DNA of 64,000 nucleotides from a virus (IMGVR_UViG_3300037067_003221:64001-128000), one strand, 5' to 3'. Shown: positions 486 through 50,849, numbered from the stretch's first letter. Translations and numbers: made by a program. The notes: generated from the sequence alone by a model not told the origin.

Positions 486-567
486 TCGGCCTGCAAGGAA
501 TCGAACCTTGTGTGGGACTAGCCCAACAGATTTACAGTCTGCCGCCCGACCATCGAGCATCAAGCCG
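486..567 (-). tRNA. tRNA-Tyr(GTA), atypical (C1-G72, A8, long variable arm)
   Basis: RC cloverleaf: CGGCTTG/CAGGCCG acceptor, GCAGA-CTGTAAA-TCTGT anticodon arm, CAAGG-TTCGATT-CCTTG T arm; no encoded CCA. Confidence 0.85.
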
Positions 568-2999: not shown

Positions 3000-4595
3000 T
3001 TAGTTCCTTACAAAGTCTGCCATAACAGCCGGGCAGGCGGCATCAAAGCCGACAACATCCAACATCCCGGCATCATTCGGATCAGCAATAGTGAATCCAG
3101 TCGCCGTGGTCCCGGCCACGATCAACTTGGCGTTAATGCCCATTTTCTGACGGTATTGCGTCAAGGCTTGGCATGGGTGAATATCACCCGACCACGTTTC
3201 ATTATCGGTATAGATAATGAAAGCATCAACTTCAATTTTATTCTCCGCTGCGTACAGCATCGGAAGGGCACAATCAGTGCGGGACATTCTGATCGACTTA
3301 ATCAAGGCAATCACTTCGCTCAATCGAGAGCAACGGTTAATGTCCATCGGACTAATACCCCCGGAAAACGCCGTAACCAGCGTTTGCGGCTCAGTCTTAG
3401 TCGTAACCATCGACATGCAAGCCGACACATCCCTAGCAGAGAGATTCGTATTGGCTACACGCTGGCTACCCATCGAACCCGATACGTCAAGGGCAACCAT
3501 GTGCCGCTTGCCAGTCGGTTCAACTGCATCGAAAGACGCATAAAACGCATCTTCCAATGCCGCCGTAATTTGAGTTACAGGGGTCCAAGTCAATGCACCA
3601 CGGAAACCGTGGCCTTGACGATAGGTGTCTTGTGCAAGCAAGATCGACAACGGATGCACGCGCGCCCGCTTCAAATCTTCCATATTCATTAGGTGTCGGC
3701 ACACCAAATTGGTTGCAGCCGACAGCGGCTTCAATAGCCCGATGCTGGACAACTTGCCGAGATTGCGAATCAAGGCAGTGGGCGGCATGTGGGGCAGCAA
3801 TTCTTCCCAAATGACCGTGCTATTAAGCAACGTATTCGGAACATGCTCGAACGACATTTGATACTTGCGAATTAAATCCGCAGCCTTACGTTCGTCGCCG
3901 GGTCCGAGTTTTTGAATTGCTTCAAACCCTTCAACGATTGCCAAAGGCGAGTTAGCAGGGATGCAAGGAATACTGCCACCCTGAGTCAGATACTTGTATA
4001 GGGCGTTTCGCACATCGCTATTGGTCCGTGGGTGCGACAGCCGCAGCGCATCGCGGTGCGTATAACCTTCACGGTTACGATACTTCGTAACTTGATAGGC
4101 CAGCCGCTCTATTGGCATAACGTCATACCAAGTGGCAACTGCATTACGCAGACCACGGCCCCAACCACGCATTTCCTTACACGCTCCGATGAATTGGAAT
4201 AAGTGCGTCGGAATACGGCACACGGTCGATAGGTGGTGCAGAGCATGGCTACGGGCAACATTGTCGCCGTGACTTGCCACAAGGGCAAGAGCGAAGATTG
4301 CCGCATCGTTCTTAGGTGCCCGGCCAGCCGAACTAATACCGGCAATAGTCTTAACCGTGCGAGACGAATCGACGGCGGCACATTCCAACACGACCTTAGC
4401 ATTATCCACAGTCATCGGGCGTTCGCCAACATAATACGAACCGCCCTCGCATCCGAGAATCAAGAACCGTTCAAGACGGGTCCAAATATCCGTTGCGAAA
4501 ACAAATCCGCCAGCGTTATTTTTGACCTGTTCGCGGCCAAAGATAGCTTGCGATTGCGAAGTTTTGCGAGACGAAACATGCTGTGCGTAACTCAT
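3000..4595 (-). CDS. rsr: Ro60/Rsr RNA-binding protein (TROVE + vWA)
   Basis: QVKNNAGGFVF, RLERFLILGCEGGSYY, KYRNREGYTHRDALRLSHP, ALIRNLGK, vWA MIDAS DVSGSM, TDCALPM, YTDNETW, IADPNDAGMLDVVGFD; true start MSYAQH at 4595 with GGAGAA RBS. Confidence 0.97.
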   Translation of the reverse strand: MSYAQHVSSRKTSQSQAIFGREQVKNNAGGFVFATDIWTRLERFLILGCEGGSYYVGERPMTVDNAKVVLECAAVDSSRTVKTIAGISSAGRAPKNDAAIFALALVASHGDNVARSHALHHLSTVCRIPTHLFQFIGACKEMRGWGRGLRNAVATWYDVMPIERLAYQVTKYRNREGYTHRDALRLSHPRTNSDVRNALYKYLTQGGSIPCIPANSPLAIVEGFEAIQKLGPGDERKAADLIRKYQMSFEHVPNTLLNSTVIWEELLPHMPPTALIRNLGKLSSIGLLKPLSAATNLVCRHLMNMEDLKRARVHPLSILLAQDTYRQGHGFRGALTWTPVTQITAALEDAFYASFDAVEPTGKRHMVALDVSGSMGSQRVANTNLSARDVSACMSMVTTKTEPQTLVTAFSGGISPMDINRCSRLSEVIALIKSIRMSRTDCALPMLYAAENKIEVDAFIIYTDNETWSGDIHPCQALTQYRQKMGINAKLIVAGTTATGFTIADPNDAGMLDVVGFDAACPAVMADFVRN

Positions 4596-4615
4596 TCTTT
4601 TCTCCAAATTAAAAA

Positions 4616-4679
4616 TTAGGCAAGTTAGTGGAATGGGGTGCTTCAAAACCAAATTGATAACCCATCCCGTTCGGCCCAA
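4616..4679 (-). ncRNA. Mini Y RNA-like element immediately upstream of Ro60
   Basis: RC TTGGGC-C-GA pairs with TT-GCCTAA (bulged-C Ro-binding helix); GGGATGGG/CCCATTCC upper stem followed by TTATC; inner TCAA-TTTGGTT-TTGA hairpin. Confidence 0.8.
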
Positions 4680-4689
4680 ATCACACTCA

Positions 4690-5055
4690 CTACCAGTCCA
4701 TGCGGAACGAACCAAAATTGGTGTCGATCAGCATTTCTTTGAATTGATCTTCGGTCATTGCGGCATCTTCCGGTTCGTCATGGACGAAATTCAAGAAGAA
4801 TACCCAATCATACACTTGATACCGTTCGTAATCATACGGCAAGCAAGCATCAACCCACTCACCAATTTTACCATATTCGCCCTTATGGATAACCCAAGGG
4901 GCTTTCTTCTTATCGCAAAATTGTTTCCAAACTTCAAACCGTTCGGCTAACGGGAGCGACGTATCTGTTACATACTCCCGAAGTGCGGGCTGTACATACT
5001 TATGGTACTTCTCATTGTCTTGCAAGTGCGTAATAATCTCAGTAATTTGACTCAT
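4690..5055 (-). CDS. hypothetical protein inside the Ro60 ncRNA cluster
   Basis: 121-aa ORF with GGAGAA RBS. Confidence 0.7.
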   Translation of the reverse strand: MSQITEIITHLQDNEKYHKYVQPALREYVTDTSLPLAERFEVWKQFCDKKKAPWVIHKGEYGKIGEWVDACLPYDYERYQVYDWVFFLNFVHDEPEDAAMTEDQFKEMLIDTNFGSFRMDW

Positions 5056-5079
5056 ACGTTCTCCAAAAGGTAAATAAGT

Positions 5080-5153
5080 GACTTGGCAGTTGCGCGACGA
5101 CTGCGTTTCCCCGGTGCTACCAGGGCTTTCTTAACGTCATTGAAATACAAGTC
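5080..5153 (-). ncRNA. tRNA-sized multibranch structured RNA candidate
   Basis: RC GACTTG/CAAGTC closing stem with CCCTGGT/ACCGGGG and GCAGT/ACTGC hairpins. Confidence 0.4.
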
Positions 5154-5155
5154 TT

Positions 5156-5219
5156 TGCGGACTAGGTATGTCGATAGGGGGCATCATTAACAGTGATAAC
5201 CTATCAACCTCGGCCCGCA
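5156..5219 (-). ncRNA. Mini Y RNA-like element 2
   Basis: RC TGCGGGC-CGAG...CTA-GTCCGCA lower stem, GTTGATAGG/CCTATCGAC upper stem, then TTATC; inner ATCA-CTGTTAA-TGAT hairpin. Confidence 0.75.
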
Positions 5220-5225
5220 CAAACA

Positions 5226-5299
5226 GGGATACATTTGGGACTTGCACCCAATCCTACGTATTCTTCTCTACGTCGCTCTACTACTAAGCCAATATATCC
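5226..5299 (-). ncRNA. Degenerate tRNA-like RNA (no valid anticodon loop)
   Basis: RC GGATATAT/ATGTATCC acceptor, D arm, ACGTA-GAGAAGAA-TACGT (8-nt purine loop), TTGGG-TGCAAGT-CCCAA T arm. Confidence 0.65.
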
Positions 5300-5330
5300 G
5301 GGGACTCTATAGCGTCCCGCACAAAAGGGT

Positions 5331-5463
5331 TGGGCGTGAATGGGACTCGAACCCATACTGTTCCTTTGATAATGGATAACGCTTTACCGTCGGCCCGCGA
5401 TATACTCAGCCGGGCAAAAGGTGGCAAAACGGTTTAACGTGCTGCCATTACACTATCACGCCC
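5331..5463 (-). ncRNA. tRNA scaffold whose anticodon arm is replaced by a permuted Y-RNA (Ro-binding) stem
   Basis: RC GGGCGTGA/TCACGCCC acceptor, GTGT-AATGGC-AGCAC D arm, ATGGG-TTCGAGT-CCCAT T arm; insert AACCGTTTTGCC..TTGCCCG-loop-CGGGC-C-GA-CGGTAAAGCGTTATC. Confidence 0.8.
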
Positions 5464-5473
5464 ATAAATTCAA

Positions 5474-5773
5474 TTACTGTAACTGCTGTTTAGCTTGTGT
5501 TAACGCAGCAGCTTTCTGGTGATTCAATACCGCAAGCCGAATATCTTCATATTCAAACCCACTAATATACCCGTCGTCCATTGCAGTTTTTACTAGTTGC
5601 TGAACACAGGGATTATTGTCGCGTAATACTCGCACTTCATTGTAGCGATCGGATGAAATTTCTAGGCTCTGCTCGAATGAAATCAAACCAATAATCAACG
5701 CAACGATCCACAGACTGATTAAATTAAATACACTCTCTAAAATCGCGTCCAGAGACTTAAAAATTTTATTCAT
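5474..5773 (-). CDS. hypothetical membrane protein (start MNKIFK; the ORF-track extension runs into a tRNA)
   Basis: Hydrophobic segment; AAAGG RBS. Confidence 0.6.
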   Translation of the reverse strand: MNKIFKSLDAILESVFNLISLWIVALIIGLISFEQSLEISSDRYNEVRVLRDNNPCVQQLVKTAMDDGYISGFEYEDIRLAVLNHQKAAALTQAKQQLQ

Positions 5774-9923: not shown

Positions 9924-10004
9924 ATGGGTAGCAAGGAATCGAACCTTGTCTGCAATAAAGCTGCTTGTTTACCACAAGCCGTGCGCACCATGCGCATCTA
10001 CCTA
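9924..10004 (-). pseudogene. Degenerate tRNA-Tyr(GTA)-like gene
   Basis: RC GCGC-ATGGT-GCGC D arm, GCTTG-TGGTAAA-CAAGC (G33), T arm identical to the 486-567 tRNA (CAAGGTTCGATTCCTTG), acceptor mismatch. Confidence 0.65.
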
Positions 10005-13082: not shown

Positions 13083-13086
13083 GGAG

Positions 13087-13162
13087 TCGGAATAGAGGGA
13101 ATCGAACCCACGGCCTCATGGTCCCAAACCACGCGCTCTGAACCTAGCTGAGCTATATTCCG
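13087..13162 (-). tRNA. tRNA-Pro(TGG)
   Basis: RC CGGAATA/TATTCCG-A, GTGG-TTTGGGA-CCAT. Confidence 0.93.
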
Positions 13163-26735: not shown

Positions 26736-27045
26736 TAGTTTTGTCCTCGCAACGTGGTTCGGGGCCGGGTGGAACAATCACAGGTTCCGGTGGAACAATC
26801 ACAGGTTCCGGTGGAACAATCACAGGTTCCGGTGGAACAATCATAGGTTCCGGTAGTGGTGGCACAGGATTATCTGGCACTACGATTACTGGATTATCTG
26901 GCACAAGAACCGGCACTGGTTTAAGTGCATAATACCATCCTGTACAGATAATACCGAGTATCAATCCGGGCATCAAGATCGTCCAAAATAACAAGTCCTC
27001 GGTGCATTTTCTATTACGCGGGTTCATAGTTAGTTCCTTAAACAA
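26728..27045 (-). CDS. Membrane-anchored Pro-rich protein
   Basis: TM segment followed by (VIVPPEP)n. Confidence 0.65.
   Translation of the reverse strand: MFKELTMNPRNRKCTEDLLFWTILMPGLILGIICTGWYYALKPVPVLVPDNPVIVVPDNPVPPLPEPMIVPPEPVIVPPEPVIVPPEPVIVPPGPEPRCEDKTNA
26768..26851. repeat. 21-bp tandem repeat x4
   Basis: GGTGGAACAATCACAGGTTCC; the fourth copy has one substitution. Confidence 0.95.
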
Positions 27046-27862
27046 AAGTGCATGATTTGCACGGTTCAGAAGTTCGTACCTTCATTTGTCTCATTGCTTT
27101 AGCTTGTGGACTATTGAACACATCTAAAATGTGGTCAGTAGTTACGTCCCCAAGTTGGTATTCACACAGCCCATCCATGCAACATAAGGCTACCTTACCG
27201 TCACAGCAGATCGAAAGTTCTTGCGTCCGTCGGCATGGCCCTATTTGAGCAGCAACAGATGGGGCATCAATATTATTGCACCACCTTCCGCGATACATCA
27301 ACGCTACAATAGCTGGCTCTGGAAACATTTTTCGCCCCCAGTCTGACCATTTTCTATCCTCTTCACTATAAGAGGCCACGCGACCAATTACAAGTTGATG
27401 CTTTATACCAGCCTCAATTAGTTGTCTGATATTTTTGAGTGTCTTATCAAAATCTAAACCAGTTTCATCTTTATAGAGGCGACTGGTTCGTTGGTTAAGC
27501 GAAATCCAGATGTGTGTCATACGTTTGATAGCCAACAAAGTCGGAATCAAGTCGTTTGGCATGTGATTCAAATTCGTATGAAGTTCAATCCATGCCTTGG
27601 GCACTTGTTCATCAATTTGCACCAGCCGTTGTGAAAACAATGGGTCAAGCATCGGCTCACCCAGTTTGAAAGGCGATATAATAAACGGTTGTGGAATCTC
27701 TCTCGCCTCTGTAAGAATCTTCGTGAATAGTTCCGGTGACATATCGCTAGTGCGTCTAGGCGACCTGTCATGGGGACAGAACCGGCACCTTGAATTGCAC
27801 CGGCCTGTCGTTTCAATGTGAATACTAGTCGGATATTCCTTCGTCGTCAAGCTCTCCATCAT
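27038..27862 (-). CDS. Radical SAM protein with SPASM/twitch domain
   Basis: IETTGRCNSRCRFCP, GEPMLD, C..DGKVALCCMD..LGD..PCKSC. Confidence 0.9.
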   Translation of the reverse strand: MMESLTTKEYPTSIHIETTGRCNSRCRFCPHDRSPRRTSDMSPELFTKILTEAREIPQPFIISPFKLGEPMLDPLFSQRLVQIDEQVPKAWIELHTNLNHMPNDLIPTLLAIKRMTHIWISLNQRTSRLYKDETGLDFDKTLKNIRQLIEAGIKHQLVIGRVASYSEEDRKWSDWGRKMFPEPAIVALMYRGRWCNNIDAPSVAAQIGPCRRTQELSICCDGKVALCCMDGLCEYQLGDVTTDHILDVFNSPQAKAMRQMKVRTSEPCKSCTFV

Positions 27863-28931
27863 CTTTCGCACCCTTTCTATCCAAGTAATCGGCGGATACA
27901 CTTTTCAAAATCATCCGGCCAATGTGACAAGTTTGCTCAACCAACGGAGTCACAACACAGCCTTCGCGGCCTTTGAACTTACAGGCGGGGTCAAACGTAG
28001 TTGGACCGTAAGTAAGTTCTTTCAAAATATCCAATGAGAATGGGCCAACATACAATACTGGCACCAATTCTACGCCATAAACATTGCACCAAGTTTCCAG
28101 AACGTCCCAATTGACGTACTGACCGTTAATCATCATGTCAAAGACACGGTAGCCCAATTGGCCGCTCGGAACACCATAGTCCAAGTCTTGTACGCCAGGG
28201 CCGAACAACTCACCATATACGACAACCTCATTGGTTTCGTCGCAAATGTCGGTCAGCATGTGCAGGATATTTTCATACTGCAACGGCTCCCAGTAAACAT
28301 TGACTTTCAATTCGTCGGCCAAGTCCGAGTAGTAACACTCATGGGTGAATTGTTTCTTCACACAATGATGCGAACCGCCAACAAACTGCCATTCACCATC
28401 GATCTTGATAAGACCAATGCGGCTATTAGTTCCGTGAATCTTTTCGGTGATTCGTACTGGCAAACCCTCCTCGATAACACTGTGATTTTTCCAGTGGTGC
28501 TGGATGCTGGTGTATTCAGGGAAATTCAACAGCTTGTGGCTTGTCTTAGCTTGGCCCTGGCGCAGTTGTGCCCGCGTGATAGGCGGCTCATACTTTACTG
28601 CACCGTAGTAGTCGGATACATCCGTACCCTCAGCCTTACCAACCAGCGGCTCCGGTACAACTTGAATGAAGCCGTAAGACGGAGTACCCCGCAAACGGGT
28701 GGCCGCAATACGGTTGCCATGTTTCAAGTACGCCTTGACTCCAAGGCCAATTGCTACCGGCTCTGGCAAAATCATGTCAGGCGGGAAGAATACAGCCAAG
28801 TCACCGGCCTTAAATTGGCCAATAGGTGCAAGAGTCTGAGTGCCAAGGATGGTGACAATCTCAAGCCGATCCGCATTAGGATGTGGCGAGATTCCAATTA
28901 CCCGTTCAATACTTACGTTAATTTCCGACAT
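27825..28931 (-). CDS. RNA ligase, DRB0094/Rnl5 family
   Basis: PHPNADRLE, TEKIHGTN, YGELFGPGVQ, VFD, EGCVV, LKSVSADYL. Confidence 0.92.
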   Translation of the reverse strand: MSEINVSIERVIGISPHPNADRLEIVTILGTQTLAPIGQFKAGDLAVFFPPDMILPEPVAIGLGVKAYLKHGNRIAATRLRGTPSYGFIQVVPEPLVGKAEGTDVSDYYGAVKYEPPITRAQLRQGQAKTSHKLLNFPEYTSIQHHWKNHSVIEEGLPVRITEKIHGTNSRIGLIKIDGEWQFVGGSHHCVKKQFTHECYYSDLADELKVNVYWEPLQYENILHMLTDICDETNEVVVYGELFGPGVQDLDYGVPSGQLGYRVFDMMINGQYVNWDVLETWCNVYGVELVPVLYVGPFSLDILKELTYGPTTFDPACKFKGREGCVVTPLVEQTCHIGRMILKSVSADYLDRKGAKDDGELDDEGISD

Positions 28932-43644: not shown

Positions 43645-44090
43645 TATCTATGAAATTCTTCTTCGTACTCGGCATCTTGGATTGCACTAATATGGAAATG
43701 TAACCTGTCCATAATCATCTGCATACCAATTTTAACACCGGCGTTATTTGTCATGTGCTGTAGTCTATCACATCTGTCCCAAGCCAAATGAAGTTCCCGC
43801 GTTGCCATTTTAACATGTGCTTCTGCTTGCACGATCAAAGCTGCTTGCTCACCTTTCATAGTGACTCCTGCTCTAAAGGCTTGGTTACTTTCCGAATCGT
43901 CTCCACCAGTTTATTCAAGGACGGGTCGCGGCTGATCTTTTGAAATGCTTCCGCTAAAAGTTCCGGCTGATTCAGTATAAGACCCGTTAATGGCATAGCT
44001 CCACTAAAGGTATCTGTCCTATAGATCATGTGAACTCCGTCAGTTTGTAATTGGAAAACTATTTCCCGGTTCATAATTTAATCTCCTAAG

Positions 44091-44162
44091 CTGCATGGGC
44101 AGGACTTGAACCTGCAACCTTGCGGTTAACAGCCGCTTGCTCCACCATTGAGCTACCATGCA
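44091..44162 (-). tRNA. tRNA-Asn(GTT)
   Basis: RC TGCATGG/CCATGCA-G, GCGG-CTGTTAA-CCGC. Confidence 0.93.
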
Positions 44163-50702: not shown

Positions 50703-50766
50703 ATCTCCAAAAACTAAAGGTAAAACCAGCCGCCGAAGTAGCGACTAAATAGGTTACACAATAAAG

Positions 50767-50849
50767 CGGAAGGTGTGGGACTCGAACCCACAACCCCTTT
50801 CGAGGCACCACGTTAGCACCGTGGCTGCTTGCCAATTCGCTTACCTTCC
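50767..50849 (-). tRNA. tRNA-Ser(GCT), overlapping the last 9 nt of the ParB-like gene
   Basis: RC GGAAGGT/ACCTTCC-G, CCACG-GTGCTAA-CGTGG, long variable arm. Confidence 0.9.

What the first reader, a model, noticed from the sequence alone, without database searches (positions are those of the whole stretch)
4616..5219. Mini Y RNAs display 7-nt anticodon-like loops (possible decoys for anticodon nucleases)
Seen: the two 64-nt Y-like RNAs lack a tRNA domain, but each has a 4-bp stem with a 7-nt loop. One is ATCA-CTGTTAA-TGAT, the same loop as the phage tRNA-Asn at 44091; the other is TCAA-TTTGGTT-TTGA (U33, TGG). Inference: Ro-bound anticodon mimics could titrate or sense host anticodon nucleases or tRNA-modifying enzymes.
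Basis: inference. Interest (0 to 1): 0.7.

Follow-up and report, generated by a model that had tools for sequence, protein, structure and literature searches.

The report
Short Y RNAs displaying anticodon-like loops
Two ~65-base partner RNAs of a phage's Ro60 protein end in small hairpins shaped like a tRNA anticodon arm; about a third of 221 related RNAs do the same, which suggests these particles bait or sense factors that read or cut tRNA anticodons.

Summary
Window 4614-4683 and 5155-5222 (minus strand) are two short Y RNAs just upstream of a phage Ro60 gene (3000-4595). Each folds into the bulged Ro-binding helix capped by a 4-5 bp stem and a 7-nt loop: UUUGGUU and CUGUUAA. The second loop is identical to that of the phage tRNA-Asn.

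I collected 215 Ro60 loci and 360 unique Y RNAs, all on the Ro60 strand; 221 are short. In the short ones, 7 nt is the commonest apical loop length (77, against 14.8±3.5 in shuffles). These loops follow the anticodon-loop consensus: Y32 87%, U33 84%, R37 83%, no G38, variable middle. YUNNNRN occurs 49 times against 1.6±1.4 in shuffles. Twenty-eight loops equal a real anticodon loop; none does when reversed.

The mimicry is therefore a real family habit, in bacteria as well as phages, and I found no paper describing it. This scan's notes report it on other phage DNA.

Caveats:
- Two thirds of the homologues have other loops.
- miniY_a has U at position 37 and belongs to a separate UGG-loop class.
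- The nearest orthologues carry different loops.
- Loops do not track neighbouring tRNA genes.

The decoy or sensor function remains untested.

The parts
3000..4595 (-). Ro60 (Rsr) orthologue, 531 aa
   Evidence: Pfam TROVE 3e-44 and vWA_Ro60 2.6e-65. It is 45-59% identical to Ro-like proteins of phages and bacteria.
4614..4683 (-). miniY_a: short Y RNA (YrlB/Yrn2 type), ending 19 nt before the Ro60 start codon
   Evidence: Rfam Y_RNA 27.9 bits and sbRNA 25.5 bits, both sub-threshold. Fold. Scores 59 bits with the family model R2. Carries the motif GCCGAACG, which fits GNCGAAN0-1G of PMC4201824.
4643..4657 (-). Apical hairpin of miniY_a: UCAA-UUUGGUU-UUGA (loop 4647-4653)
   Evidence: MFE and centroid fold. 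Loop has U32, U33, UGG, U37, U38. It belongs to the UGG-loop class, enriched 42 against 5.4±2.5 in shuffles.
4690..5055 (-). 121-aa ORF (DUF7020) lying between the two short Y RNAs
   Evidence: ORF list. Pfam DUF7020 4e-06. No PHROG match.
5155..5222 (-). miniY_b: short Y RNA (YrlB/Yrn2 type)
   Evidence: Rfam sbRNA ceN72-3 28.2 bits, sub-threshold. Fold -25.9 kcal/mol, z -3.56. Scores 60.5 bits with R2. Four base pairs differ from miniY_a by compensatory or G-U changes.
5182..5198 (-). Apical hairpin of miniY_b: UAUCA-CUGUUAA-UGAUG (loop 5187-5193), anticodon-loop-like (C32 U33 GUU A37 A38)
   Evidence: Fold. The loop is identical to the phage tRNA-Asn loop. The same loop sits on different stems in L004, L069 and L039, and in Microbacterium phage FuzzBuster.
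5332..5462 (-). Third Y-type RNA of the cluster: a tRNA-shaped RNA with a loop-capped Ro-binding helix in the anticodon position
   Evidence: Rfam tRNA 41 bits with a 73-nt insert. The insert reads CGUUUUGCC..UUGCCCG-[loop]-CGGGC-C-GA..GGUAAAGCG-UUAUC. The same layout recurs in 15 or more loci.
44090..44162 (-). Phage tRNA-Asn(GUU), the comparison for miniY_b
   Evidence: ARAGORN and Rfam. Anticodon arm AGCGG-CUGUUAA-CCGCA: same loop as miniY_b, unrelated stem.
13086..13162 (-). Phage tRNA-Pro(UGG), the comparison for miniY_a
   Evidence: ARAGORN. Loop UUUGGGA against miniY_a UUUGGUU.

Best explanation
The two elements are genuine short Y RNAs of the YrlB/Yrn2 kind. They are co-oriented with, and probably co-transcribed with, the phage Ro60 gene.

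Shown:
- The 5' and 3' ends form the conserved bulged helix that carries the Ro60-binding signature.
- The helix is capped, directly after the conserved UUAUC, by a small hairpin.
- In this RNA family that cap is often built like a tRNA anticodon arm: a 3-5 bp stem and a 7-nt loop with Y32, U33, three free positions, R37 and A/C/U38.
- miniY_b (CUGUUAA) is a clear case.
- miniY_a (UUUGGUU) is a borderline case. It fits a second recurrent class of UGG loops better.

Inferred:
- Ro60 holds the basal helix and the apical arm projects as a ligand for something that recognises tRNA anticodon loops. That could be a nuclease, a modification enzyme or a repair enzyme.
- The partner would thereby be brought to, or kept away by, the Ro60 particle.
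- This phage also carries RtcB, a second RNA ligase and 14 tRNAs, several with odd anticodon loops. The most likely setting is therefore tRNA damage and repair during infection, with the arm acting as bait, competitor or sensor.

Which partner, and whether the arm is cut, modified or only bound, is unknown.
For: Identity as Y RNAs:
- The Ro60 gene is adjacent.
- Rfam Y_RNA and sbRNA give the only hits.
- Models R1 and R2 find 424 matches in 215 Ro60 loci, all on the Ro60 strand.
- The helices are 94.5% paired, against 50% or less when slid. The covariation score is 0.81 against 0.06-0.13.

Anticodon-arm likeness in 221 unique short members:
- 7 nt is the commonest loop length: 77 members, with 8 nt next at 24. 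Shuffles give 14.8±3.5.
- In the 77 loops, position 1 is C/U in 87%, position 2 is U in 84%, position 6 is A/G in 83%, and position 7 is never G.
- The real tRNA profile from the same DNA is C/U 93%, U 85%, A/G 99%, G 6%.
- Entropy is lowest at U33 (0.79 bit) and highest at positions 35 and 36 (1.83 and 1.93 bits).
- YUNNNRN loops: 49 observed against 1.6±1.4 in shuffles.
- A count that does not depend on the fold gives 76 against 14.7±3.7, and 6 for reversed sequences.
- After clustering at 70% identity, 16 of 54 representatives keep the pattern.
- 28 of 77 loops equal a real anticodon loop, against 0 of 77 when reversed.
- The same loop sits on unrelated, compensated stems: CUGCUAA on 6 stems, CUGUCAC on 4, CUGUUAA on 3.

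Context in this phage: RtcB, an RNA ligase, and 14 tRNAs that include loops with C33 and G33.

Literature:
- YrlA 'lacks the anticodon loop' (10.1101/312249).
- YrlA has been proposed as a competitive inhibitor of an anticodon nuclease (PMC7790460).
Against: - Only about a third of short members show the pattern (half of the loci have at least one). Other loops are 3-12 nt, and there are separate UGG and pyrimidine-rich classes.
- miniY_a has U at position 37.
- The orthologues in the nearest phages (L001/L002, Ro60 59% identical) have AUUUGGA and an 8-nt loop instead. In Sorangium species the apical part is hypervariable on a nearly invariant backbone.
- There is no excess of matches between loop 'anticodons' and tRNA genes in the same locus (5 of 28 against 4.0 expected, P=0.36).
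- There is no link with an adjacent RtcB gene.
- Wobble C is rare in these loops (6%, against 37% in real tRNAs), so they are not a plain copy of the tRNA pool.
- All structures are predicted. No expression, Ro60 binding, modification or cleavage data could be obtained.
Confidence: 0.6

Rival explanations
1. The apical loops are RNA-pairing loops rather than protein baits. The exposed loop would base-pair with a target RNA and guide Ro60, and any attached exonuclease, to it. For miniY_a and the UGG class specifically, UGGU could pair with the ACCA 3' end of tRNAs or of CCA-tailed tRNA-like Y RNAs. This is how the T-box UGGN bulge and the RNase P L15 GGU pair with that end (established knowledge).
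For: - UGG-containing loops are enriched: 42 against 5.4±2.5 in shuffles. UGGU loops are 16 against 1.4.
- The motif recurs in distant taxa: this phage, Sorangium and metagenome loci.
- Variable triplets flanked by fixed positions would also suit a set of guide loops.
Against: - The classic fast-pairing YUNR loop needs a purine two positions after the U. Here that position is a purine in only 27% of loops.
- The R37 and A38 preferences are explained by anticodon-loop architecture, not by pairing.
- No complementary target was identified.
- Three to five pairing bases is little for specificity.
Confidence: 0.15
2. The hairpin is only a structural cap. Its anticodon-like look would be inheritance from tRNA-derived ancestors or from recombination with the tRNA genes that crowd Ro60 loci, with no present function of its own.
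For: - Y RNAs of the YrlA type are thought to derive from tRNA (PMC4201824).
- tRNA genes are extremely dense next to Ro60 on the same strand: 550 against 13 on the other strand.
- Apical parts turn over fast between close relatives.
- Two thirds of members lack the pattern.
Against: - Fast turnover without constraint should erase a 7-nt loop with U33 and R37. Instead the pattern is 30-fold above shuffles and absent from reversed controls.
- Identical loops sit on different, compensated stems.
- The stems do not resemble those of the matching tRNAs: miniY_b UAUCA/UGAUG against tRNA-Asn AGCGG/CCGCA.
Confidence: 0.12
3. The elements act in cis. miniY_a lies 19 nt before the Ro60 start codon and could be an operator through which Ro60 represses its own translation, in the way ThrRS binds an anticodon-arm mimic in the thrS leader (established knowledge). 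The loop would then be incidental. This reading does not exclude the others.
For: - Position of miniY_a.
- In many loci the last short Y RNA ends 15-100 nt before the Ro60 start (coordinates).
- In M. smegmatis, Y RNAs and rsr come from one precursor (PMC4201824).
Against: - miniY_b and most array members are far from any start codon.
- Some short Y RNAs lie downstream of Ro60 (L011, L053, Sorangium).
- This reading does not explain the loop signature.
Confidence: 0.08
4. It is chance: two unrelated hairpins that happen to have 7-nt loops.
For: Only two copies are in the window. The miniY_a fold is not better than shuffles (z -0.94).
Against: - Homologues lie in 215 loci, all on the Ro60 strand, with covariation.
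- The loop statistics are far above the controls.
Confidence: 0.01

Closest known systems
Short bacterial Y RNAs: Salmonella and M. smegmatis YrlB, D. radiodurans Yrn2 (Chen et al. 2013/2014, PMC4201824)
   Same: They are encoded within 2 kb of rsr/Ro60 on the same strand. They have a Ro-binding bulged helix with the GNCGAA-type motif. They form one long hairpin with a small loop and have no full tRNA-like domain. They coexist with a tRNA-like Y RNA.
   Different: The published description is 'small pyrimidine-rich loop'. No anticodon-arm likeness is reported, and M. smegmatis YrlB is said to carry a possible T arm. Here the RNAs are phage-encoded, and the family loops follow the anticodon-loop consensus with variable triplets. 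I did not compare sequences with the published YrlB or Yrn2, which are not held.
YrlA tRNA-like Y RNAs (PMC4201824; structure preprint 10.1101/312249)
   Same: Same Ro-binding helix and UUAUC junction, and the same loci. They mimic part of a tRNA. Some long family members carry the same anticodon-like hairpin between the Ro helix and the T arm (L007:2661, L048:1869, L095:2760, FuzzBuster).
   Different: YrlA mimics the acceptor, T and D arms and 'lacks the anticodon loop'. The short RNAs do the opposite: they have no elbow and only an anticodon-arm-like cap. There is no Rfam YrlA hit in the window.
Metazoan Y RNAs and nematode stem-bulge RNAs (Rfam RF00019, RF01656)
   Same: They are the best Rfam matches. 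The aligned features are the GGNCCGA 5' strand, the bulged C, the UUAUC junction and the CUUG 3' strand.
   Different: Scores are 25-28 bits, below the gathering score of 38. The metazoan loops are large, pyrimidine-rich and not anticodon-like.
Anticodon-arm mimics in other RNAs: thrS leader operator, TYMV tRNA-like structure (established knowledge; the TYMV TLS is mentioned in 10.1101/312249)
   Same: A 7-nt anticodon-like loop on a short stem is used to engage a protein that normally reads tRNA.
   Different: Those mimics copy one specific tRNA for one known partner. Here the 'anticodon' varies widely (30 triplets in 77 loops) and the partner is unknown.
Phage counter-measures to anticodon nucleases: phage tRNAs with altered loops, RNA repair by ligases, and RNA decoys such as anti-CRISPR RNAs (my own knowledge, not checked here)
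   Same: This phage has tRNAs with non-canonical loops, RtcB and an RNA ligase. An RNA bait would fit that toolbox.
   Different: No decoy of an anticodon nuclease made of a Y RNA has been shown. I found none in the papers searched.

Membership tests
Y RNA (Ro60-associated ncRNA), short YrlB/Yrn2 type | Encoded close to (within 2 kb of) a Ro60/rsr gene, on the same strand | tested here: met
   The Ro60 orthologue is at 3000-4595(-). The RNAs lie 19 nt and 560 nt upstream on the minus strand.
Y RNA (Ro60-associated ncRNA), short YrlB/Yrn2 type | 5' and 3' ends form a bulged helix with the GGUCCGA-like / GNCGAAN0-1G motif | tested here: met
   miniY_a has UGGGC-C-GA with GCCGAACG. miniY_b has GCGGGC-C-GA with GCCGAGG, one departure from the motif.
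Y RNA (Ro60-associated ncRNA), short YrlB/Yrn2 type | Helices kept by compensatory change in homologues | tested here: met
   All 17 of 17 pairs show changes on both sides. Cells are 94.5% paired, against 50% or less when slid (the alignment is fitted to the model). Four pairs differ between miniY_a and miniY_b while staying paired.
Y RNA (Ro60-associated ncRNA), short YrlB/Yrn2 type | Reaches the Rfam Y_RNA (RF00019) gathering score | tested here: not met
   27.9 bits against a gathering score of 38. The Rfam hits were to the Y_RNA family (RF00019) and the nematode stem-bulge RNA family (RF01656), so this speaks against membership of that Rfam family, not against being a bacterial-type Y RNA.
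Y RNA (Ro60-associated ncRNA), short YrlB/Yrn2 type | Physically bound and stabilised by Ro60 | not testable with these tools
   This needs immunoprecipitation.
YrlA (tRNA-like Y RNA) | T arm, D arm and acceptor-like stem between the strands of the Ro helix | tested here: not met
   Only about 20 nt lie between the helix strands. There are no tRNA or YrlA hits on these two elements. The neighbouring element 5332-5462 has these arms, in a permuted order.
tRNA anticodon arm (as a mimic, not a tRNA) | 7-nt loop with pyrimidine 32 and U33 | tested here: met
   miniY_a UUUGGUU and miniY_b CUGUUAA. In the family, Y32 is 87% and U33 is 84% of 77 loops.
tRNA anticodon arm (as a mimic, not a tRNA) | Purine at position 37, and no G at position 38 | tested here: inconclusive
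   miniY_b has A37 and A38, so it meets the feature. miniY_a has U37, so it does not. In the family R37 is 83% and G38 is 0%. The absence of G38 is partly forced by how loops are defined.
tRNA anticodon arm (as a mimic, not a tRNA) | 5-bp stem under the loop | tested here: inconclusive
   miniY_b has 4 Watson-Crick pairs plus one U-G. miniY_a has 4 bp. In the family the stems are 2-6 bp: 5 bp in 24, 4 bp in 23 and 3 bp in 20 of the 77.
tRNA anticodon arm (as a mimic, not a tRNA) | Feature kept across homologues with a variable triplet | tested here: met
   49 of 221 members have YUNNNRN loops, against 1.6±1.4 in shuffles. The pattern holds in 16 of 54 clusters. There are 30 different triplets. 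28 loops equal real anticodon loops, against 0 when reversed. It is not kept in the nearest orthologues L001/L002.
Decoy or sensor of anticodon nucleases / tRNA-modifying enzymes | Is bound, cut or modified by such an enzyme, or competes with tRNA for it | not testable with these tools
   No data. Context only: RtcB, an RNA ligase and odd tRNA loops in the phage. The phage has no TGT.
Decoy or sensor of anticodon nucleases / tRNA-modifying enzymes | Loop identity tracks the tRNAs that the same element carries or protects | tested here: not met
   The same-locus anticodon match is 5 of 28 against 4.0 expected (P=0.36). Exact loop matches are 2 against 1.0 expected. Only 3-kb flanks were compared, so this is a weak test.

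The most novel reading that the evidence does not exclude
Short Y RNAs may be a widespread class of 'anticodon-arm display' RNAs. The Ro60 ring would hold a fixed handle and present an exchangeable, fast-evolving copy of a tRNA anticodon arm. YrlA-type RNAs would present the other half of a tRNA, the elbow and acceptor. Arrays with different 'anticodons' would let phages and bacteria bait, titrate or sense anticodon-specific nucleases or modification enzymes, or recruit repair (RtcB, ligases) to cut anticodon loops. That would make Ro60 particles part of the conflict over tRNA integrity.
Probability: 0.25. Interest if true: 0.85.

Novelty: new variant of a known kind. Interest (0 to 1): 0.7.

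Why it matters
What bacterial and phage Ro60 and its Y RNAs do is still an open question. The published clue is that YrlA copies the tRNA elbow but 'lacks the anticodon loop'. The short Y RNAs have been treated as plain hairpins.

If a large share of them display the missing anticodon arm, with interchangeable triplets, the question becomes directly testable. One can ask which anticodon-reading protein binds or cuts these arms, and whether that protects tRNAs during infection or stress.

Named, culturable systems are at hand:
- Mycobacterium phage Catera has an Asp-like CUGUCAC arm in the unannotated gap before its Ro-like gene.
- Microbacterium phage FuzzBuster has an Asn-like CUGUUAA arm.

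It would also add an RNA-based bait to the known phage answers to tRNA-cleaving defences.

Tried and rejected
- DNA similarity of the cluster to GenBank phages: no match.
- T-loop reading of the 7-nt loops: rejected. C at loop position 3, invariant in T loops, occurs in only 5 of 77, and UUCRA is absent apart from a few shifted cases. T loops do satisfy YUNNNRN, so that filter alone is not specific. The G/U at position 34 and the exact matches to anticodon loops separate the two.
- Antisense-type YUNR loop: rejected. The fourth position is a purine in only 27%.
- Terminator reading: no terminator-like site at either element. A weak promoter-like site at 5503-5476(-) is no better than shuffles.
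- Link to the phage's own tRNAs: the identity of miniY_b with the tRNA-Asn loop is real, but the locus-level test shows no general association.
- Link to an adjacent RtcB gene: only 11 of 215 loci have RtcB within 3 kb, and none of the 43 loci with anticodon-like short Y RNAs does.
- Queuine-insertion idea for the UGU loops: the phage has no TGT.
- A fourth GGGCCGA...GTTATC match (G000:C1:57898-57923) lies in coding-looking sequence without a 3' strand partner, so it is chance.
- Fetching whole relatives to compare full tRNA sets: handles were obtained, but the test would have had little power, so I did not pursue it.

Full report
**What is there.** The window is bases 64001-128000 of a 147-kb virus record that CheckV rates complete. 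On the minus strand, 3000-4595 encodes a 531-aa Ro60 orthologue (TROVE 3e-44, vWA_Ro60 2.6e-65). Reading upstream on the same strand, the order is:
- miniY_a (4614-4683)
- a 121-aa DUF7020 ORF (4690-5055)
- miniY_b (5155-5222)
- a structured spacer
- a tRNA-shaped RNA with a 73-nt insert (5332-5462; Rfam tRNA 41 bits)
- two tRNA-Leu genes

The only Rfam matches to the two short elements are sub-threshold hits to Y_RNA (27.9 bits) and to nematode stem-bulge RNAs (28.2 and 25.5 bits). These align the GGNCCGA strand, the bulged C, UUAUC and the CUUG 3' strand.

**The observation.** Both RNAs fold into a basal helix, an upper helix and an apical hairpin. miniY_a gives UCAA-UUUGGUU-UUGA and miniY_b gives UAUCA-CUGUUAA-UGAUG. 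The two copies differ at four upper- and lower-helix pairs while staying paired. The phage has 14 tRNAs. The anticodon loop of tRNA-Asn is CUGUUAA, identical to miniY_b but on an unrelated stem. The tRNA-Pro loop is UUUGGGA, which shares five of seven letters with miniY_a.

**Homologues.** I fetched 55 viral, 80 metagenomic and 80 genomic loci that encode relatives of the Ro60 protein. A covariance model of the two RNAs (R1) found 75 further matches in the viral loci, all on the Ro60 strand and mostly just upstream of the gene.

To avoid biasing the search towards hairpins like those of the window, I rebuilt the model with pairs only in the Ro-binding helices (R2). R2 gave 424 matches at E≤0.01, all on the Ro60 strand. 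That is 360 unique sequences. The helices are 94.5% paired, against 50% or less when the partner is slid, and all 17 pairs show double changes (the alignment is model-fitted). Of the 360, 221 have an apical part of 34 nt or less. So short Y RNAs are the commonest form, often in arrays of two to eight.

**The loop test.** I folded the 221 short RNAs with the family helices fixed. The apical loop is 7 nt in 77 of them; the next most common length is 8 nt, in 24. Composition of those 77 loops:

| Loop position | Short Y RNAs |
|---|---|
| 1 | C 48, U 19, A 9, G 1 |
| 2 | U 65 |
| 3 | G 34, U 31, A 7, C 5 |
| 6 | A 49, G 15 |
| 7 | A 41, U 18, C 18, G 0 |

Real tRNAs predicted in the same DNA (577 genes) have C/U32 93%, U33 85%, A/G37 99% and A38 66%. 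Entropy is lowest at position 2 (0.79 bit) and highest at positions 4 and 5 (1.83 and 1.93 bits). That is the shape of an anticodon loop.

Controls:
- Shuffling the apical part gives 14.8±3.5 seven-nt loops and 1.6±1.4 YUNNNRN loops, against 77 and 49 observed.
- A fold-independent count (a stem of 3 bp or more plus a YUNNNRN loop) gives 76, against 14.7±3.7 in shuffles and 6 for reversed sequences.
- After single-linkage clustering at 70% identity, 16 of 54 representatives keep the pattern.
- 28 of the 77 loops are letter-identical to a real anticodon loop of the comparison set. None is when reversed.
- The same loop recurs on different, compensated stems: CUGCUAA on six, CUGUCAC on four, CUGUUAA on three.
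- The loops are not T loops, because C at position 3 is rare. They are not YUNR pairing loops, because position 4 is a purine in only 27%.

**Limits.**
- The pattern holds in about a third of short members, and in 43-61 of 126 loci depending on the count.
- There are other loop classes. UGG-containing loops number 42, against 5.4±2.5 in shuffles. miniY_a, with U at position 37, belongs there. Sorangium also has pyrimidine-rich UUACCC loops.
- Apical parts turn over fast. In the nearest phages (L001/L002), the orthologue of miniY_b has AUUUGGA and that of miniY_a has an 8-nt loop. In Sorangium species the backbone is nearly invariant while the cap changes in sequence and length.
- Loop 'anticodons' do not match tRNA genes of the same locus more than chance (5 of 28 against 4.0 expected). 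The identity with the phage tRNA-Asn loop should therefore not be over-read.
- The habit is as frequent in bacterial genomes (13 of 57) as in viral contigs (22 of 79). It is a property of Ro60/Y RNA systems in general, not a phage invention.
- Wobble C is rare (6%, against 37% in tRNAs), so the loops are a biased sample of anticodons: G34 and U34.

**Context and mechanism.** The phage also encodes RtcB (G000:C1:48157-49131) and an RNA ligase (window 27825-28931). Several of its tRNAs have non-canonical anticodon loops: Glu with C33, a second Tyr with G33, and Ser with G32.

In the literature, rsr and Y RNAs share an operon with rtcBA in Salmonella. That operon is switched on by tRNA halves cut in the anticodon loop, and YrlA has been suggested to inhibit the responsible nuclease competitively (PMC7790460). 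YrlA itself 'lacks the anticodon loop' (10.1101/312249). [quoted passage not shown]

My best reading is that Ro60 holds the handle and the cap is an anticodon-arm mimic offered to a factor that reads anticodon loops. Whether that factor is a nuclease, a modifying enzyme or a repair enzyme, and whether the RNA is bait, competitor or sensor, is inference only.

Rival readings are RNA pairing (for the UGG class, possibly with the ACCA 3' end), a functionless tRNA relic, and a cis operator for Ro60 translation. They are weighed in the report sections.

**Novelty.** Four literature searches found no description of anticodon-arm likeness in short Y RNAs, and none of a Y RNA decoy for anticodon nucleases. 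Notes from this scan report the same habit beside Ro60-like genes of other phages. They are unchecked AI notes and I did not count them as evidence, but my family statistics agree with them. I file the two RNAs as new members of a known kind (short Y RNAs). I file the anticodon-arm display as a new variant of that kind.

**Named systems for testing**.
- Mycobacterium phage Catera (NC_008207.1) has three unannotated Y RNAs in the gap before its Ro-like gene gp223. One is a short one with UCAA-CUGUCAC-UUGA.
- Microbacterium phage FuzzBuster has a YrlA-type RNA with CAC-CUGUUAA-GUG right after UUAUC.

Noticed in passing
window 5332-5462 (-); also L067:767 and 1017, L084:1765, L095:2125, L101:4870, L165:2777, L170:6113, L171:5731 and 5862, L181:4804: A tRNA-shaped Y RNA with open acceptor ends. 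The order is acceptor 5' strand, D arm, then a Ro-binding helix closed by a loop in the anticodon position, UUAUC plus a small hairpin, T arm, acceptor 3' strand. This is a circular permutation of YrlA. It recurs in at least 15 loci, including Sorangium, Kofleriaceae and Gemmatimonadota. I found no description of it in the papers read.
   Followed up: partly
window 5222-5335 (-): The spacer between the tRNA-shaped Y RNA and miniY_b folds into several hairpins, one of them T-arm-like (UUGGG-UGCAAGU-CCCAA). The fold is only mildly better than shuffles (z -1.65). It has no Rfam hit.
   Followed up: no
G000 tRNA set: window 486-567, 9924-10004, 50766-50849; G000:C1:54766-54838: Several phage tRNAs have non-canonical anticodon loops: tRNA-Glu CCUUCAA (C33), a second tRNA-Tyr UGGUAAA (G33), tRNA-Ser(GCU) GUGCUAA (G32) and tRNA-Ser(CGA) UUCGACU (C37). 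This may be relevant to escape from anticodon nucleases.
   Followed up: no
G000:C1:48157-49131 (-); window 27825-28931 (-) and 27038-27901 (-): The phage encodes RtcB (158.9 bits) and an RNA ligase (PF09414 1.5e-19, phrog_968). The ligase sits next to a radical SAM/SPASM protein and tRNA-Arg.
   Followed up: partly
L152, L159 and other Sorangium/Minicystis loci: tRNA genes are very dense next to Ro60 and almost always on its strand: 550 against 13 across all loci. L152 has 28 different anticodons and L159 has 24 within 7.6 kb.
   Followed up: no
Sorangium loci L154-L196, downstream short Y RNA (about 5050-5570): The backbone is nearly invariant between species while the 18-25-nt apical part changes in sequence and length: CUGUUCC, CCUUACC, CUUUCAA, CUUUUAC, UUACCCAU and others. 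This is a hypervariable module on a fixed handle.
   Followed up: partly
family-wide; window 4647-4653: A second recurrent loop class contains UGG or UGGU: 42 and 16 loops, against 5.4 and 1.4 in shuffles. UGGU is complementary to the tRNA 3' end ACCA.
   Followed up: partly
L007:2661-2796, L048:1869-1998, L095:2760-2855, L224:2180-2311: Some full-length YrlA-type RNAs carry an anticodon-like hairpin directly after UUAUC, in the variable-arm position: UCCA-CUUGUAA-UGGA, CAUCC-CUGUAAC-GGAUG and CAC-CUGUUAA-GUG.
   Followed up: partly
L222 (Mycobacterium phage Catera NC_008207.1, 126,894-127,379): The unannotated gap before the Ro-like gene gp223 holds three Y RNAs: short, YrlA-type, short. The record annotates none of them.
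   Followed up: partly
window 5503-5476 (-): A promoter-like site (TTAACA-16-TACAGT) lies just upstream of the tRNA-shaped Y RNA. It would fit one transcript covering the Y RNA cluster and Ro60. The number of such sites in the region is no higher than in shuffles.
   Followed up: no
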